64,000 nucleotides of DNA from the NCBI GenBank assembly GCA_951406725.2, contig OX597815.1:104966001-105030000 (forward strand), written 5' to 3'. How positions within the stretch are numbered: position 1 is the first letter of the stretch; each line of letters starts with the position of its first letter. Below the pieces are notes generated by a model, which made no database searches, was not told the origin of the DNA, and saw only the letters and a program-made list of their open reading frames with translations. Positions 12,506 to 37,769 of the stretch are shown piece by piece. Source of the DNA: Octopus vulgaris. Lineage: Eukaryota. A program made the position numbers and the translations under genes.

Positions 12506-15403
12506 CTTTTTTTTTTCTTCTTTCAAATTTTCTTCCATTTCTTGCCGAGTGTCTTCCCGACTCCTAGGGCAAAGAAACTCATAGTGTATATTGGTAGGCC
12601 ATTAAACCAAACTCAGTAGTTCGTACATTTTTTTAAATTTTTTTTTTAAAGTTAAATTAAAATACATGAGCAGCAACAGTTTTCACATCGACAATGCTCT
12701 TCTCAATACGTGTGATGTACCAGTTAAGACAATCTTTTGCACTTCTTGCAGGGATGGTAAGCCAGGGATCATTCTCATATAATTTTCGGTTCCCTTCTTG
12801 ATCATTCCTAGTGCTCCTACGATCACTGGTATTGTAACCGCCTTGAGATGCCACATTTTCTCAATTTCAATGAGTAGGTCTTTATATTTTCTGAGCTTGT
12901 CAAACTCTTTCGCTGAGATATTATGATCACAGGGGATGCTCATGTCGATCAATAAGCAAACTTTATTGTTTTGGTCTTTCACAACAATATCTGGTTTATT
13001 GACCTTGATGGTTCGGTCTGTATGTACTGGAAAGTCCCACAGAATCGTTACATTTTCTCCTTCAGTTACAGCCTGAGGGTGGTGATTATACCACTTGTCG
13101 GCAGTTTTGATATTGTAATGCCGACTTATTAGCCAGTGGAGATATTGGCCAACTCTGTCATGTCTTAATTTATACTCCACTGGTGCTAAGACTTTACATC
13201 CAGAGATTAGGTGGTCCACTGTTTCAATCATGTCGTTGCAGAATCGGCATTTTGGGTCTGCTCCATTTTTCATCACATTGGCCTGGTAGTTCCGGGTTAA
13301 TAGGCTTTGGTCTTGAGCAGCCAGGATGAAACCTTCGCTCTCGGCTTTTAGCCCTGAGCTCCGCAGCCACTGATGGGTTTGCTTCTGGTCAACATCAGCT
13401 TGTTTGCTGCGGGTCACATATTTGCCGTGCAGAGGTTTCTCCTCCCACCTATCAGCCAATTGCTCGTGCGCTTTTTTCATTGCCATCATTTTCACCTTCT
13501 TTGCAACAATAGTTGCCGTACTTCCCTCGGGTTGTTCAGTTTGGGTATCCTGCACGAGATCAATAGCAAATTTTTTGCTTTCCTTGATGATAGAATGAAG
13601 CTTCTTTCGTCTCTCGTGATTTTCCACGAGCTTTAGCATCCAGTCATTCGATATTTCGAGATATTTGGCCAGTCCAATTGTGGTTGTTTTGTAAGCTAGT
13701 TCAAATTGGATCAGGCCTCGACCTCCTTGGGCTCTGGGAAGGTAAAGGCGATCTACGTCTGCCTTTGGGCGGTGCATCCTATTACAACTCAGCAGCTTGC
13801 GTATTTTTCTATCTATATTCTTTACTTCACTCATATTCCAGTTCAACACATTGTAGCTATAAGTAACAACTGGAACTGCTAGGGAATTTATAGCTAACAC
13901 CTTGTTACGTGCATTTAGTTCAGATTTCAGGACTGCACGAACTCTCCTATAACATTCCTTCCTGATTTTCTCTTTCATGCTTGCATGCTGAATACCAGAG
14001 CCTTCATTTATCCCTAAATATTTGTATGTTTGTTCTTGCTCAAGCTCTTTTATGACTGTGTCAACATCTAACACGACTGAATTTGTGGTCTTCACTTTCC
14101 CTTTCTGGAAAGTGGCCTTGGCACGCTTCTCAAGTCCAAACTCCATCCCGATGTCATCGCTGAATGCTTTCACGGTGCGCAATAGGCCTTCAAGTTCATT
14201 ATTGTCTTTACCATAAAGTTTTAAGTCATCCATATAAAATAGATGGCTTATTTTTTTATTGGCAATTTTATACCCATACCCTGTTCTGTTTAATTCACTT
14301 GTAAGGGGTATTAGGGCTATGCAGAATATTAAAGGTGAAAGTGAGTCACCTTGAAAAATTCCACAGTTGATGTTTATATTTTCTGAGGCAAGTACTCCAT
14401 TAGAGTGGTATAATTGGAGATTCGTATTCCACAACGACATATTGTGCTTCAGGAAGTTTGAAATCACAGGGGAAATTTTGAAGATGTCCAGCGATCTCAA
14501 GATCCATGGATGCGGTATACTGTCGAAGGCCTTTTTGTAGTCAATCCATGCGGTGCTGAGATTTCTGCGCTTGTTGTGACAGTTCTCAAGGATCATACGA
14601 TTGATTAGCAGTTGATCTTTGCATCCGTAAGAGCCTCGGCGGCACCCTTTTTGTTCAATGGGGAAAATATCGTTCTTCTCCATGAATGCATATGTTTTCT
14701 CCGCCAGGATAGATGTTAGGATTTTATACGTGGTGGATAGACAGGTTATAGGCCGATAGTTTTTTGGAAGGTTGGTTTCGTTATTCTTTGGGAGTAGGTA
14801 AGTAATGCCACTTGCTAACCATTCAGGTGTTTTCTTTGGGTCTCTCATAATTCCATTGAGCAGCTGAACTAGCTTACCGTGTGCGCACGGGAGCGATGCG
14901 AGCCAGAAATTCGGCACCCTATCTTTACCGGGGGATTTCCAATTATGGGCCTTCGTGAGTGCCTTTCTTAGGTCTGCTATTGTGATGTATTCCCATGCTT
15001 GTTGTAAATTTTGGTAGGATCCTTCAGTTTGTATAATCCAGTCTGCATTTATGTTGTACGTCTTCTTGTCACTCCAAATCCTTTTCCAAAAGTTTTGAAC
15101 TTCTTCCATGGGAGGGGGGTCTTTAACGGTTACTTTCTCCTTCCCTATTTCTCTGTAGAATTTTTTGGCATTGGATGTGAACAGCTTATTTTGCTTGTAA
15201 AACTTGTTTCTCTTCTCAAATCTTCGTATTCTTTGGGCTTTTGCTTGGACTTTTTGTTTCAGCGTCTCTTTTATTGATATCAGTTCTTCTCTTGGTGAGG
15301 ATCCAAATTTTCTCTTCATCTTTCTTCCTGTTCTGGATCTTACATCATTTCCACATATTAGTTCATTTAATATTGATATTTCCCCTCTCATAAATTCAAT
15401 CTC
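12506..15403 (-). mobile_element. R4/Dong-clade non-LTR retrotransposon, 5'-truncated, with intact RT-CCHC-RLE reading frame
   Basis: (TAA)n on both sides. About 175-bp 3' UTR shared with 15493-15605. Confidence 0.93.
12683..15403 (-). CDS. Reverse transcriptase / restriction-like endonuclease ORF of about 905 codons; the poly-Ile start in the ORF track is flanking microsatellite
   Basis: KSPGKD, YRPITCL, EQKGC, WIDYKKAFDSIPH, GIFQGDSLSP, FYMDDLKLY, YKYLG; CRFC..ETVDHLISGC; RHD; KPDIVV..LIDMSIP..KEFDKLRKYKDL. Confidence 0.93.
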   Translation of the reverse strand, partial: EIEFMRGEISILNELICGNDVRSRTGRKMKRKFGSSPREELISIKETLKQKVQAKAQRIRRFEKRNKFYKQNKLFTSNAKKFYREIGKEKVTVKDPPPMEEVQNFWKRIWSDKKTYNINADWIIQTEGSYQNLQQAWEYITIADLRKALTKAHNWKSPGKDRVPNFWLASLPCAHGKLVQLLNGIMRDPKKTPEWLASGITYLLPKNNETNLPKNYRPITCLSTTYKILTSILAEKTYAFMEKNDIFPIEQKGCRRGSYGCKDQLLINRMILENCHNKRRNLSTAWIDYKKAFDSIPHPWILRSLDIFKISPVISNFLKHNMSLWNTNLQLYHSNGVLASENININCGIFQGDSLSPLIFCIALIPLTSELNRTGYGYKIANKKISHLFYMDDLKLYGKDNNELEGLLRTVKAFSDDIGMEFGLEKRAKATFQKGKVKTTNSVVLDVDTVIKELEQEQTYKYLGINEGSGIQHASMKEKIRKECYRRVRAVLKSELNARNKVLAINSLAVPVVTYSYNVLNWNMSEVKNIDRKIRKLLSCNRMHRPKADVDRLYLPRAQGGRGLIQFELAYKTTTIGLAKYLEISNDWMLKLVENHERRKKLHSIIKESKKFAIDLVQDTQTEQPEGSTATIVAKKVKMMAMKKAHEQLADRWEEKPLHGKYVTRSKQADVDQKQTHQWLRSSGLKAESEGFILAAQDQSLLTRNYQANVMKNGADPKCRFCNDMIETVDHLISGCKVLAPVEYKLRHDRVGQYLHWLISRHYNIKTADKWYNHHPQAVTEGENVTILWDFPVHTDRTIKVNKPDIVVKDQNNKVCLLIDMSIPCDHNISAKEFDKLRKYKDLLIEIEKMWHLKAVTIPVIVGALGMIKKGTENYMRMIPGLPSLQEVQKIVLTGTSHVLRRALSM

Positions 15404-15491
<88 letters not shown>

Positions 15492-15492
15492 T

Positions 15493-16012
15493 TAGTTAGG
15501 ATCTTCTTTCAATTCTGTTTCCATTTCTTGCCGAGTGTCTTCTTGACACCTAGGGCAAAGAAACGTACTCTATACATTGGTAGGCCATTAAAACAAACAC
15601 ACCAGATTATTCATTTAGAGTCATATGATACGGAAAAAGAAGAAAGAGAGAAAAGGAAGCAATAAAAAAATTTTAAAAAGTAAACAAATAAAATACAGGA
15701 GTGGGGAGTGAAAAAGAAAGAAAATTCAGAGCGACAATGATTTTCTCAATATGTGTGACGTACCAGTTAAGACAATCTTTTGCGCTTCCTCTTTTGATCA
15801 TTCCAAGTGCCCTTACAATCACTGGTATTGTAACCGTCTTGAGATGCCACATTATTTCAATTTTAATTAGCAAATCTTATTTTCTGAGCTTATCAAATTC
15901 TTTTGCCGAGATATTATGGTCACAGGGTATGCTCATCTCAATCAATAAACAGACTTTATTGCTTTTGCCATTCACAATATCTAGTTTATTTACCTTGATG
16001 GCCCAGTCTGTT
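15493..16012 (-). mobile_element. Short 3' fragment of the same Dong-like subfamily as 12506-15403
   Basis: Near-identical RLE C-terminus (MWHLKTVTIPVI) and shared 3' UTR motif ccatttcttgccgagtgtctt...cctagggcaaagaaac...ttggtaggccattaaa. Confidence 0.88.
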
Positions 16013-22262: not shown

Positions 22263-22486
22263 TACATTCACACATGTACACACATATTTGTACAAATAAA
22301 TATTTGCTCTGTCCACATATGTAAAAAATATTTTATATATTTTATATATGTATATATATATATACATGTAGATAAAAATGTTTATGTACATACGTGCGTT
22401 ACCTGTTTATGTAGCTATGCATATGTCTTTGTGTATCTGTGTGTGGATGAATCTGTGTGTGATTGAATTAACGATTGTGTACTTAC

Positions 22487-23913
22487 CTAAAGTTGCTGCA
22501 CGGGTGTATAACCCAGTTGCCGACCCTCTTGTGACGCATCTTCTCTTTATAGAGTGCATTTTTGTTTCCGAAAAGCTTCATAGCTAATTTGTTATCCGAT
22601 GGCTGGAAGAATGAGTAGATCTGGTCTTTTAGAAAACTAGTCGGACTAGACTTACTGTTTTCAACGGTAACGTTTTCCTCACGGCACGGTAAAAGCTCTT
22701 CTTTAGGTGTTCCATACAAACTTGTATCGTCCCCTATGAACTGTACCCGAGCATCACTCTTGTAATTAATTTCGGGACTGAGGTAGTCACTATAGACCGA
22801 TTCATCATCTGAGTCTATAGTTATAGTTATTGAAGGGTTAGGGTTGCTTTGCGGTAAGCATGGCATAGTAGCTTCTGTCTTTTCTGTTCTCTCCGCTCTG
22901 GCTGCCGCTGCTACATTCAGCCGCTTTAATTTCAAACTCGGAACACGGCGAGAAGCTCGGGGGGGCGTGGAATGTCCGATTGGTTGATGAGGCGAGCGGG
23001 GCGCGCCACTACTTGGTGGTGGTCGGAACTTAACTGAATCCGACCGCTGAAAATGCGGCGAAGGTATGGTGGCTGTCACTGGTGTTGTTGACTGAGCAGG
23101 AGGTACCACTAACTCCGTTGCCGGAGAACCTCCGACAACAACCACTAGACCTCCACTGCCACTACTACTACTACTACCACCACCACTGCCGACGCTGCCA
23201 ATGCTACCGCCACCACCATGAACACCCCCACCCCCACCCCCACCAACACTAAGAATACCGCCAACGTTGCCGCCACCGGGGTTGTAGCCACTATCTCCGA
23301 CACCACCACCACCACCAATACCACCACCACCACCACCACTGCCGAAGCCACCAACGCCGACACCGATACCGCCCCCTCCACCACCGATTCCGCCACCACC
23401 GACTAATAGATAAGGGGGTCTTGCACCGATATTTGATTGCACTGATCCTTGTGTGGGTGTAGTGGTACTGGCAGGCCCGGTAGCCGTGGTAACGGTCGGG
23501 TTGTTCACGTTGATAGCAGCTGGGGTGGTGGCTGTGGTGGTGGTTGTGGTGGCGGTGGTGGTGGTACTTGTGGTGGTGCTGGTCGTCGTCGTCGTCGTCG
23601 TCGTCGTCGTATTTCCAGGGCTACCCGTACCGGGCGACTTGGACGACGGCAGGACGTCGTTGTTGTTATTTGATACATGGTCGAATTCCTTAAAAACTGT
23701 CGGAGATAGTCCAAGGCTGACGCCTGGAAGGTTCGTCGTGCTCCCTCCCATTGGTGTGGTGATTGCTGATGAGGACTCTTGCATGGCGATCGGGGGTACA
23801 GACAATGGACTAGAGGCCACGGGAAGAAACAAACCATCGCTGCTACTATTTATTGAAGGTGAGAGACTGTCTGAGGAATTGACAACGACACTTAATGTGG
23901 GAGACTTGGCCAT
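22487..23913 (-). CDS. HCN: HCN / Ih hyperpolarization-activated cyclic nucleotide-gated channel, N-terminal coding exon (exon 22487-23947)
   Basis: C-terminal part SLYGTPKEE...FFQPSDNKLAMKLFGNKNALYKEKMRHKRVGNWVIHPCSNFR matches the invertebrate Ih HCN domain before S1. It ends at an AG|GTAAGT donor (22487/22486). Polypyrimidine-CAG acceptor at 23948. Confidence 0.95.
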
Positions 23914-24038
23914 ATCGCGACAACTTTCCCTCGCCTGGACGGGTAACCTGAAAGTAGAAAATAAAATAAAAGAGATAACAGTTAGTAAGAGACATGAGAT
24001 ATAATCAAAATAGCAACAAATATTAACAATGTTATTTA

Positions 24039-24109
<71 letters not shown>

Positions 24110-34880: not shown

Positions 34881-34941
<61 letters not shown>

Positions 34942-34946
<5 letters not shown>

Positions 34947-35321
34947 ATATAAACGGCAGTTTGTCTGTGCGTGTTTCTGTGTGTCTGTTTTCTCGTACCC
35001 TCACCCTGACCACGGCTTTCAACCGATTCTGATGAAACTTGACACACACATAGCCCAATGTCATAATTCAAAACTAACGCAGCGAAAATTTTGAAAAGTT
35101 CCCCCAGTTCTGAAAAAAAATCGATAAATTCGACATGGGGTCGAGAATAAAAAAAAACAAACCACAGACTGTCTAGGGGACGCAACTCAACCTTTTTTTA
35201 CCATCATTTTTTTACCATCATTTTTTTCCCATTTTTTTGCTATTTTTTGGCTATAACTCTCTAAAAATGCTTTATAGTTATTTCCCTTACAAACCTGAGC
35301 AACGCCGGGCGATACTGCTAG
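34942..35321 (+). mobile_element. Non-autonomous Helitron
   Basis: A|TCtctatataaa 5' end, subterminal GC hairpin cctgagcaacgccggg, 3' end CTAG|T. Confidence 0.8.
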
Positions 35322-35325
35322 TATA

Positions 35326-36065
35326 TAATATAGGATAGAATTTTTCGAAAAAATTCTATCAATGGCCAGCATATTAAAAAATAGCTTTAAAGGTTAAATT
35401 TATAAACAATTTATAAGTAAGGGCAAAAGGAAAATTTTCGAATGCCATAATATGCTGAAAATAGACACTATGTCGATAACCATGTAATTTATCACTACAA
35501 TCACGTGTTTCAAAGATAGCCGGCAGAAATTTCTAAAAAATTCCGTTATTACCATATCGGACCCGATTTCAGAGTTAGTTCATAAGAAACTTCCCTTCAT
35601 CAGTGATAAATGCGGTAAAGAAATACGTGAAATAGTTACTCATACCCATGGAAGAAGCGAGCACTAAGCCATGAGCACAACTAAGTACCCCAAATATATC
35701 CAAAATAGAAATTCTCTAGCACACCTCGAGACACGTGCGATTCGAACCGAAAAGCTCTCGTAAAGTGAGAGTCCAGAAGTTAACACTATTAAATTAACAT
35801 CTAATATAGGATAGAATTTTTCGAAAATAATCTTCTTTTGCCATTACTTATAATTTGTTTATAAATTTAACCTTTAAAGGTATTTTTTAATATGCTGGCC
35901 ATTGATAGATTTTTTTTCGAAAAATTCTATCCTATATTAGATGTTAATTTAATAGTATTTACTTTCGGACTCTCTCACTTTACGAGAGCTTTTCGGTTCG
36001 AATCGCACGTGTCTCGAGTTGTGCTAGAGAAATTCTATCTTGGATATATTTGGATATATTTGGGG
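35326..36065 (-). mobile_element. Hammerhead-bearing element: 476-bp monomer with terminal redundancy plus an inverted junction-spanning copy
   Basis: taatataggatagaattt at 35326 and 35802. 35820-36065 is the reverse complement of 35688-35801 joined to 35326-35440. Minus-strand CTGATGA...GAAA...TA with 9-bp stem I at 35487-35611. Confidence 0.75.
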
Positions 36066-36102
36066 TAGTCATGTTTGCTAGCTTTATTATCATTCTAAAG
36101 TG

Positions 36103-36497
36103 GAGGCGTAGGAGTGGCTGTGTGGTAAGTAGCTTGCTAACCAACCACATGGTTCCGGGTTCAGTCCTTCTGCGTGGCACCTTGGGCAAGTGTCTCCTAC
36201 TATAGCAGCGGGCCGACCAAAGCCTTGTGAGTGGATTTGGTAGACGAAAACATGTATGTATGTATGTATGTATGTGTGTGCATGTGTGTATGTTTGTGTC
36301 TGTGTTTGTCCCCCCAACATCGTTTGACAACCGATGCTAGTGTGTTTACGTCCCCGTAACTTAGCGGTTCGGTAAAAGAGACCGATAGAATAAGTACATG
36401 GCTTATAAAGAATAAGTGCTGGGGTCGATTTGCTCGACTAAACGCGGTGTTCTAGCATGGCCACAGTCAAATGACTGAAACAAGTGAAAGAGTAAAA
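36103..36497 (+). mobile_element. tRNA-derived CORE-type SINE with CR1-like 3' tail
   Basis: TGGCTGTGTGG A box, gggttcagtcc B box, accttgggcaagt CORE-like motif, tail cggtgttctagcatggccacagtcaaatgactgaaac. Confidence 0.8.
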
Positions 36498-37769
36498 TAA
36501 TACCACAAGAGCGTACAATGAAAGCAATACGTTAAATGATAAATAAATTTCAGCAACCAAGAATTGACTTTAGTCTAAGACAAGGGTGAAGTGTGAAGAC
36601 TACGTAATAACTGCGTAGTAACAGCTAAATCACTTTCCAAGCATCCTTTCCTCTTAAGATGAAGTAGCGATTGCACAGAATTATACACTATGTAGTCTTA
36701 ACTACACTTAGAAAATATGGGCAGTAACTCAAACTAAACAACCATGAACTGCTAGAAGAAAATAAATAAAGATAATTCCCATATTATTAATAGATATTTA
36801 TTTTTCAAATAAGTAACTATGTATACATTTCTACATTACCAAAGCTCTCCCAATTTCATCAGTTTCGATTCTTTTATACATATCGCTTTGTTTTTGATGG
36901 CGTTAATGTTGTTGTCTTGTTATTGTTCTGACTGCTGCTGCTCATTATTCCAAAGAACGGCCCTGATCAAGTTGAACTATGACTAAAGACACTCGAGGCT
37001 TGACTATCCCATTTTTTTAAGACGATAAAATGTAATATTCATCTCATAACTGGTTTTTCATGTCGCTACTATCGTAGGCGAGAACTCAAAGCACACTATT
37101 ATCAACAATTTAAATAATTCAGCCAACATGAGACATTTTGACACCCCTATTTAAAGTTCAATCGTGGTTTCAAATCTAACATCACAAACTTTGAAATCAA
37201 TTGAATAAAACCTATATATATTGCTAATTTTTGCTTCCATTCCAAAAAACCTTGCCAAAATGGAGTTTCCGAAATATTAATAATTTTCTAAAGAATTTCT
37301 CCTGTGTTTGTATATATCACGTAAATGCTGTATAACTTTCAGATACTTTAAACAATGTCTTTGGTATCGAATCTACAACTTTATCAATACACTTTAGTTT
37401 CTTAAATCTTGACAGCTTTTTTCCGATATTAGAATCTGTCGTGTTACTTCCAATATTCTCCCATCTGTTTCTTTTGCTGTTAATATTACTCTTTCGTTCC
37501 CCCATCCCTTCTTTCTCCTGTGTCTCCCCAACAATCTCTTCACTTTTTTTATCCATATCTAATACTATATATATAAATATTTTTCGAATGCCAGTTATGA
37601 GGAGTTTTTAATTCAATAACTAAAACTTAAAATTATTGAAATCCTGATTCTTTTCACTTTTACTAACAATGTGAATGTACAGTGCGCGCGCGAACATGTG
37701 TACGTGTAAGTATGTCTGTCTGGGTATCTGGGTGTCTGCGTGTGTACATGTATTCATATTATATATGTG

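What the first reader, a model, noticed from the sequence alone, without database searches (positions are those of the whole stretch)
35326..36065. 476-bp hammerhead monomer followed by an inverted copy that crosses the monomer junction
Seen: the order is A(35326-35440), hammerhead (35487-35611, minus), B(35688-35801), start of A again, then the reverse complement of B+A contiguous (35820-36065). The inverted part contains the full B-to-A junction, which the direct part shows for only about 25 bp. The hammerhead has a perfect 9-bp stem I that uses the C of CTGATGA and an unusually long stem II of about 85 nt. Inference: the template was circular or tandem, and reverse transcription switched strand as in Penelope inverted pseudo-LTRs. 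This would be a second retrozyme-like family, unrelated in sequence to the 358-bp one.
Basis: partly seen in the sequence, partly recalled or inferred. Interest (0 to 1): 0.75.

Follow-up and report, generated by a model that had tools for sequence, protein, structure and literature searches.

The report
Penelope-pasted two-armed hammerhead retrozyme
This is one ageing copy of a dispersed, protein-less 476-base repeat that carries a predicted self-cutting hammerhead RNA; its copies are mostly mirror-image pairs of arms starting at two fixed points, likely written by a Penelope-type retrotransposon enzyme, a known kind of element whose insertion rule is unusually clear here.

Summary
The layout is real: a 476-bp monomer, about 30 bp of a second one, then an inverted arm that crosses the monomer junction. 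The supported ribozyme is compact (35549-35609, minus strand, predicted cut AUA^ at 35555/35554), with five compensatory pair changes against a 468-bp sister family.

The family is dispersed and non-coding, and sits in (TA)n. Of about 175 insertions, 107 are two-armed. Among the 74 with both ends at the two fixed sites A and B, 72 are A+B, 2 B+B and 0 A+A (37 A+B expected). The two arms share one donor and read through the ribozyme cut site. This fits a Penelope-type enzyme priming both target strands at two internal sites on an uncut circular or tandem RNA, better than a strand switch. The window copy is atypical: its second arm ends at a minor third site, also seen in one sister copy.

Not shown: cleavage, circles, the partner enzyme. 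It is a new member of a known kind (animal non-LTR retrozyme). The scan reported the same architecture for other families in this genome, but not this sequence.

The parts
35323..35831 (-). Direct arm: one full 476-bp monomer (35326-35801) plus about 30 bp of the next. The ribozyme strand is minus. The outer end is at family site A, in a short TA remnant.
   Evidence: 26 differences from the family majority over 476 positions
35549..35609 (-). Type I hammerhead (predicted): stem I 35609-35604 / 35554-35549; CUGAUGA 35603-35597; stem II 35596-35571; GAAA 35570-35567; stem III 35567-35556; predicted cut between 35555 and 35554 (AUA^). This copy has one substitution in distal stem II (35589).
   Evidence: core intact in 45 of 57 arms not selected on the motif
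35326..35408 (-). 'Tail': about 80 nt between the two fixed family ends, site A (U472-U3) and site B (U76-84, 35401-35408)
   Evidence: outer-end histogram: 81 of 280 arm ends at U76, and 55 at U472 or U474
35820..35827 (.). 8-nt microhomology TTCGAAAA at the inversion joint, shared by U23-30 of the direct arm and the reverse complement of U110-117
   Evidence: sequence
35820..36067 (+). Inverted arm: U117->U1 continuous with U476->U361, crossing the monomer junction and ending at a minor third site (U361). No ribozyme in this arm.
   Evidence: sister copy L244 ends on the same GGATATATTTGGGGTA
35487..35495 (-). A predicted competing, non-catalytic helix.
   Evidence: pair probability 0.67 in a 141-nt fold and 0.0 in the circular monomer fold; broken by subfamily variants

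Best explanation
This is one copy of a dispersed, non-coding 476-bp repeat family with a conserved hammerhead motif, likely a non-autonomous Penelope-dependent retroposon (non-LTR retrozyme) whose RNA was likely copied into both strands of a cut in (TA)n DNA from two fixed internal start sites. Steps. (1, inferred) A locus is transcribed on the ribozyme strand; loci holding two ribozymes would release a monomer that would be ligated to a circle. (2, shown) The template was not a ribozyme-cut linear monomer: arms run through the cut site and through the monomer junction. (3, inferred from PMC11167929) A Penelope RT/GIY-YIG protein nicks both strands of a (TA)n tract and primes cDNA on each, one at site A and the other at site B about 80 nt upstream in the RNA. 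(4, shown) The two arms come from the same donor, and their outer ends are A+B. (5, inferred) Both cDNAs stop early and are joined head to head through short microhomology. In the window copy the first arm began at A and ran 1.06 monomers, the second began at a minor site (U361) and crossed the junction, and they joined at TTCGAAAA.
For: Copy number: 133 exact hits of a 24-mer from the ribozyme and 158 of a 22-mer from the tail, with 0 for the reversed controls. Architecture: 107 two-armed, 66 one-armed and 2 complex among 175 insertions from 190 loci; A+B 72, B+B 2, A+A 0 of 74 (expected A+B 37, p 1e-19). Target: (TA)n next to 99 of 109 A ends and 101 of 123 B ends, against 209 of 2359 control 15-mers. 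Same donor: arm identity 93.6% within against 90.4% between insertions, higher within for 68 of 75; shared variants 265 of 953 against 5.5%. Read-through: of 77 arms reaching U219, 4 end in U219-239; 45 of 280 arms cross the junction, 40 exceed 480 nt, the longest is 744 nt, and 6 span two ribozyme sites (site taken at U234). Ribozyme: 95.4% of cells paired, with compensatory changes between the two families at 17-67, 25-50, 27-48, 32-43 and 56-63; the alternative GUC register fails in the sister family (A15.1-U16.1 unpaired in 22 of 50). No ORF over 51 aa, and no shared continuation beyond the inner ends of the 66 one-armed copies. Autonomous RT + GIY-YIG elements exist in the genome; one, L228, has identical 766-bp inverted arms, (TA)n on both sides, a tail on one end only and a hammerhead-like motif. 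In vitro, a Penelope protein cuts and extends both strands and starts at two internal sites that bound the genomic tail (PMC11167929).
Against: No autonomous element sharing sequence with this family was found: among 30 + 11 GIY-YIG loci the only strong match was a nested sister copy, L202/L222. The tail is about 80 nt against 30-40 nt in described Penelope elements. 33 of 107 two-armed insertions, the window copy among them, have at least one end outside A/B. Frangieh et al. saw no difference in start site between the two strands, so the strict A+B asymmetry is not predicted by their assay. Energy models do not favour the active fold (window copy -10.0 against -16.0 kcal/mol MFE; family majority -16.4 against -20.4). 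The compensatory changes are about five events between two families, not many independent ones: 'pairs with a change on both sides' was reached by 50 of 500 shuffles. No long tandem arrays were seen, unlike typical retrozymes. In one study 8 of 9 predicted retrozymes did not cleave in vitro.
Confidence: 0.7

Rival explanations
1. Single priming with fold-back: one cDNA turns back on itself, makes a hairpin, and the tip is later trimmed by deletion.
For: Inner ends of the two arms lie within 20 nt in phase in 22 of 72 A+B insertions against 7.7 in shuffles; the arms share a donor; junction microhomology is slightly above shuffled (3.2 against 2.7 nt, 0 of 200 shuffles); palindromes at inverted junctions were read as self-priming in rotifer Penelope. 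In the window copy, a deletion between two TTCGAAAA copies could have removed U31-117 of the second monomer.
Against: A fold-back should often stop at its own start site, but A+A is 0 and B+B is 2 of 74; the stop site would have to depend on the start site. In 19 of 72 insertions neither arm contains the other, which needs an extra deletion in each case.
Confidence: 0.2
2. Same Penelope-type insertion, but from linear, uncut read-through transcripts of partial-tandem loci (or an unassembled array), with the ribozyme mostly silent and no circle.
For: No arm reaches two monomers (maximum 744 nt of 280 arms). For Anolis Poseidon, uncut RNA was the main substrate and ribozyme mutants inserted normally. 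The active fold is not the predicted minimum.
Against: Six A+B insertions have inner ends in the same phase but one full monomer apart (2.0 expected, p 0.01), which suits two enzymes on one ring. The ribozyme was kept by compensatory change across about 18% family divergence. With linear templates only, arm length could only shrink over generations unless a long master exists (inference).
Confidence: 0.3
3. Solo or truncated pseudo-LTR of an autonomous Penelope element rather than an independent non-autonomous family.
For: All end features are those of Penelope terminal repeats; retrozymes are reported to derive from pseudo-LTRs.
Against: U476 is joined directly to U1 in 45 arms; no common continuation or ORF beyond the inner ends; the sister family also closes on itself at 468 bp.
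Confidence: 0.06
4. TIR MITE or other DNA transposon, or a chance hairpin.
For: Inverted repeats flank many copies.
Against: The two ends are not the same sequence (A against B), arm lengths and centres vary freely, units are circularly permuted tandems, and the ribozyme is conserved.
Confidence: 0.02

Closest known systems
Animal non-LTR retrozymes (Cervera & de la Pena 2020, PMC7229834; Li, Clavereau & Pollet 2026, bioRxiv 10.64898/2026.07.22.740005)
   Same: Non-coding AT-rich monomer (34% GC) with one type I hammerhead; head-to-tail partial tandems; no LTR features seen; co-occurs with autonomous Penelope-like elements; monomer size within the 51-972 bp reported by Li et al.
   Different: Mostly dispersed two-armed insertions of at most 1.6 monomers rather than dimer-to-multimer arrays; 476 nt is above the 170-400 nt RNAs of the 2020 paper; stem III is 4-5 bp with an AUA cut rather than 1-2 bp; expression as circles not shown. 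The parts of these papers that I read do not describe fixed A+B ends ('inverted' has 0 occurrences in PMC7229834).
EN+ Penelope-like elements: inverted pseudo-LTR and tail (PMC8557442, PMC3846280); Anolis Poseidon in vitro (PMC11167929)
   Same: 5' truncation, partial tandems, inverted upstream copy, a tail at one end only, AT-rich or microsatellite target, hammerhead upstream of the two start sites.
   Different: No ORF; tail of about 80 nt against 30-40 nt; both arms often hundreds of nt long and either can exceed one monomer; no partner protein identified.
L1 twin priming (recalled, not read here)
   Same: Both target strands prime on the same RNA, giving an inverted 5' part.
   Different: Here both primers use fixed internal sites and copy overlapping template, and there is no poly(A) end.

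Membership tests
Non-LTR retrozyme | Type I hammerhead with intact core in the repeat unit | tested here: met
   core intact in 45 of 57 arms; covariation between two families
Non-LTR retrozyme | Short non-coding low-GC monomer without LTR organisation | tested here: met
   476 bp, GC 0.34, longest ATG ORF 51 aa; PBS/PPT not searched specifically
Non-LTR retrozyme | Head-to-tail tandem copies, with at least two ribozymes in some loci | tested here: met
   45 of 280 arms cross the junction and 6 span two ribozyme sites. No locus with two complete monomers was seen, and the window copy has one ribozyme only, so it would not count as 'active' under Li et al.'s criterion.
Non-LTR retrozyme | Self-cleavage of the transcript | not testable with these tools
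   only predicted; energy models do not favour the active fold
Non-LTR retrozyme | Accumulation as monomeric linear and circular RNA | tested here: inconclusive
   only contigs of runs guessed to be RNA were available; they cannot show strand, ends or circles
Penelope-mobilised (non-autonomous PLE) | [quoted passage not shown] | tested here: met
   A+B in 72 of 74; tail about 80 nt, longer than described
Penelope-mobilised (non-autonomous PLE) | Partial tandem plus inverted 5'-truncated copy; AT-rich target | tested here: met
Penelope-mobilised (non-autonomous PLE) | Sequence homology to the pseudo-LTR of an autonomous PLE | tested here: inconclusive
   none among 41 GIY-YIG loci examined out of 150 listed and 6136 first-look candidates
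Autonomous Penelope-like element | RT + GIY-YIG ORF | tested here: not met
   no ORF in or beyond the unit
TIR MITE | Identical terminal inverted repeats with fixed internal length | tested here: not met
   the two ends differ (A against B) and lengths vary

The most novel reading that the evidence does not exclude
An asymmetric Penelope protein dimer loads on one circular retrozyme RNA, with one subunit committed to site A and the other to site B. It writes both strands of a (TA)n break at once, and one polymerase can lap the ring and stop where the other has stalled. That would give the mechanism for both retrozyme spread and the Penelope tail and inverted repeat.
Probability: 0.3. Interest if true: 0.72.

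Novelty: new member of a known kind. Interest (0 to 1): 0.45.

Why it matters
How animal retrozymes get back into the genome, and how Penelope elements make their tail and inverted repeat, are both open. The papers read propose Penelope machinery and circular templates from co-occurrence and homology, without an insertion-level rule. This family gives a countable footprint: one A end plus one B end, one donor, read-through of the ribozyme site, and a third minor site. It also supplies a short defined RNA for the published in vitro Penelope assay. The locus itself is an ordinary decaying copy with no sign of a host function.

Tried and rejected
(2) My own first reading, a minimal stem III with a GUC cut (notes), was rejected after the sister family broke U16.1. 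The read-through test was first run at U234 (6 of 76 end in 224-244) and repeated at the corrected site.
(4) Rfam: no hammerhead hit.
(5) Expression: no RNA holder listed on record. Contigs of three runs guessed to be RNA and one other run cover most of the stretch, which is no evidence either way.
(6) Partner search: a recalled Pfam accession was not in the library; the GIY-YIG search found Penelope-type ORFs, none homologous to this unit.
(7) Target-site duplication at the window copy: none convincing (best 6-nt match, not at the ends).
(8) A test for an upper limit of one lap between arms: no signal (4 observed, 4.5 expected).
(9) Thermodynamic folding gives no support for the active fold (z 0.31 for 151 nt; z -0.09, -2.03 and -1.88 for three 61-nt copies).

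Full report
Observation. The window carries U = 35326-35801, followed by about 30 bp of U again (period 476), then the reverse complement of U117-1 joined without a break to U476-361, ending at 36067. The two arms meet in an 8-nt microhomology at 35820-35827. There is no other copy in the window.

Family. A DNA search of the own genome returned 94 matches from 40 scored of 3774 first-look candidates. Exact patterns from the ribozyme and from the tail gave 133 and 158 hits, with 0 for the reversed controls; these are lower bounds. I held 190 loci: 30 best BLAST hits, 90 from the ribozyme pattern and 70 from the tail pattern. Only the first 100 places of each pattern were listed. Exact de-duplication left 175 insertions. 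This is a slight overcount: L110/L111 and L011/L020 look like local duplicates, L008/L146 are two halves of one interrupted insertion, and L123/L124 overlap. One further locus (L232), fetched later, is not in the counts. It is two-armed, with a B end and an inverted arm that runs past site A to about U427.

Architecture. 107 insertions are two-armed head to head, 66 are one-armed and 2 are complex. Outer ends pile up at site A (classed as U460-6) and site B (U64-86), about 80 nt apart. Among the two-armed: A+B 72, B+B 2, A+A 0, A+other 17, B+other 13, other+other 3. Independent choice would give 37 A+B of 74 (p 1e-19). (TA)n lies within 15 nt of 99 of 109 A ends, 101 of 123 B ends and 17 of 50 other ends, against 209 of 2359 control sites. 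The two arms of an insertion share a donor: identity is 93.6% within against 90.4% between insertions, higher within in 68 of the 75 insertions with enough overlap, and 265 of 953 variant positions are shared against 5.5%. Later gene conversion between arms could add to this. Inner ends do not pile up at the predicted ribozyme cut: 4 of 77 arms reaching U219 stop in U219-239, in 149 A or B arms chosen on the tail motif. 45 of 280 arms cross the monomer junction, 40 exceed 480 nt, and the longest is 744 nt. So the template was uncut tandem or circular RNA. Inner ends match in phase within 20 nt in 22 of 72 A+B insertions (7.7 shuffled): 16 in the same lap (5.7 expected) and 6 exactly one monomer apart (2.0 expected, p 0.01; one row, L029, was mis-unwrapped there and is not among the matches). 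I saw the phase match before reading earlier notes; the 'lapping one ring' reading came after note e1-8662707.

The window copy is the only one of the 107 in which both arms cross site A. Its second arm ends at U361. Two other copies end at U355 and U367 in TA runs, and a sister-family copy, L244, ends on the same nucleotide. A minor third start site is therefore likely, though a later deletion cannot be excluded because this end lacks (TA)n.

Ribozyme. A motif scan gave three possible registers at 35603. A sister family turned up by chance beside a Penelope ORF (L202); it has a 468-bp monomer, about 82% identity to this family and copies 94-96% alike. I aligned 56 ribozymes: the window copy, 28 family copies and 27 sister copies. 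Three copies with indels (L014, L250, L253) were left out, and L256 was dropped as the same locus as L257. The structure with a 6-bp stem I, 4+5-bp stem II, 4-bp stem III and a cut after AUA has 95.4% of cells paired, against 26-44% for slid controls. Five pairs change on both sides between the families, one each in stems I and III and three in stem II. These are few independent events, and 50 of 500 shuffles reached the count of such pairs. The GUC register fails in the sister family. Stem III is also self-complementary apart from two central G-U pairs, so a dimer fold is possible (sequence; concept in PMC4209133). Nearest-neighbour folding prefers other structures, so the ribozyme may be damped or protein-assisted as reported for Anolis Poseidon. 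The sister family shows the same ends: by my reading, 9 A+B among 18 two-armed of 29 distinct loci chosen with a B-arm query, with one possible A+A (L259), one complex B+B (L249) and 7 with an end elsewhere.

Partner. The genome has many GIY-YIG hits (150 scored), including repeated 781-aa frames with RT and GIY-YIG domains (the RT score is just under the Pfam cut-off). Locus L228 is an RT-GIY-YIG element with identical 766-bp inverted arms, (TA)n at both ends, an AC-rich extension of about 35 nt at one end only and a hammerhead-like motif. It has the same footprint but no sequence match to this family. The cognate partner was not found among 41 loci examined.

Mechanism. Frangieh et al. (PMC11167929; parts 1-2 of 4 read) show that a Penelope protein cuts and extends both strands of AT-rich DNA, starts at two internal RNA sites that bound the genomic tail, and is predicted to be a dimer. 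The A+B rule, the shared donor and the (TA)n target fit priming of both strands from two fixed sites. They saw no strand difference in start site, so the strict asymmetry found here goes beyond their data. Fold-back with later tip deletion remains possible, but it does not explain why A+A is absent. A circle is favoured by the one-lap matches and the conserved ribozyme, but it is not shown.

Literature seen. bioRxiv 10.64898/2026.07.22.740005: parts 1-3 of 5, abstract to discussion; its supplements are closed and cover Xenopus and 35 mostly vertebrate genomes. PMC4209133: parts 1-2 of 4. PMC7229834: passages and part 4 of 6. PMC8557442 and PMC3846280: passages only. No supplements were read; those of PMC7229834 and PMC8557442 could list cephalopod families. 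Searches returned no paper whose title or abstract describes a cephalopod retrozyme family or an A+B rule. One listed paper (PMC10886601) was seen only as a listing, and repeat databases were not searchable. Hammerhead numbering, the NUH rule, L1 twin priming, the Helitron-like, SINE and HCN labels, and the guess that the host is an octopus are recalled, not from a call (earlier notes also say cephalopod or octopus).

Earlier scan notes. Nothing near this place and nothing by sequence. Eight notes on other retrozyme families of this genome (355-590 bp) report the same two-start Penelope footprint; they are unchecked AI notes, seen after my A+B count.

Verdict. A real, dispersed, ageing (about 90% identity between copies) Penelope-type retrozyme family with a corrected compact hammerhead. 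It is a new member of a known kind, useful as mechanistic evidence. Interest 0.45.

Noticed in passing
It is high-copy (60 matches from 40 scored of 3574 candidates). Other copies show a textbook type I motif with 6-bp stem I, CAAU loop II and GUC cut (19 copies). It shares only the ribozyme core with the 476-bp family.
   Followed up: partly
L202:2819-3264 and L233-L262: Younger 468-bp sister family (about 82% identical to the 476-bp unit; copies 94-96% alike) with the same A and B ends and compensatory ribozyme changes.
   Followed up: yes
L228:1021-4183: Very young RT + GIY-YIG element with 100% identical 766-bp inverted arms, (TA)n flanks, a one-sided AC-rich tail and a minimal hammerhead-like motif.
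   Followed up: partly
L221-L226: Multi-copy Penelope-type family with a 781-aa RT + GIY-YIG frame preceded by a second overlapping long frame (327-434 aa visible) and a tandemly repeated 3' region; no canonical hammerhead found by my motif scan.
   Followed up: partly
window 34941-35320: Repeat directly left of the element, starting after (TA)n and ending in a GC-rich hairpin-like stretch plus CTAGT; Helitron-like (label recalled). The same repeat flanks family copies L117 and L081, suggesting that both use (TA)n tracts.
   Followed up: no
window 36103-36500: SINE-like repeat beginning about 35 bp right of the inverted arm (label recalled).
   Followed up: no
window 22483-24048 (minus): Long low-complexity exon ending in an Ion_trans_N domain (E 1e-22), HCN-channel-like (label recalled); the element lies about 11 kb upstream of it.
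   Followed up: partly
window 12683-15508 (minus): 941-aa open frame with an RVT_1 domain, a non-LTR retrotransposon with several fragments elsewhere in the window.
   Followed up: no
run X5 contig laid on window 35525-35720: A variant from another organism label carries changes on both sides of distal stem II (35588 with 35579), consistent with the compact fold; single contig.
   Followed up: no
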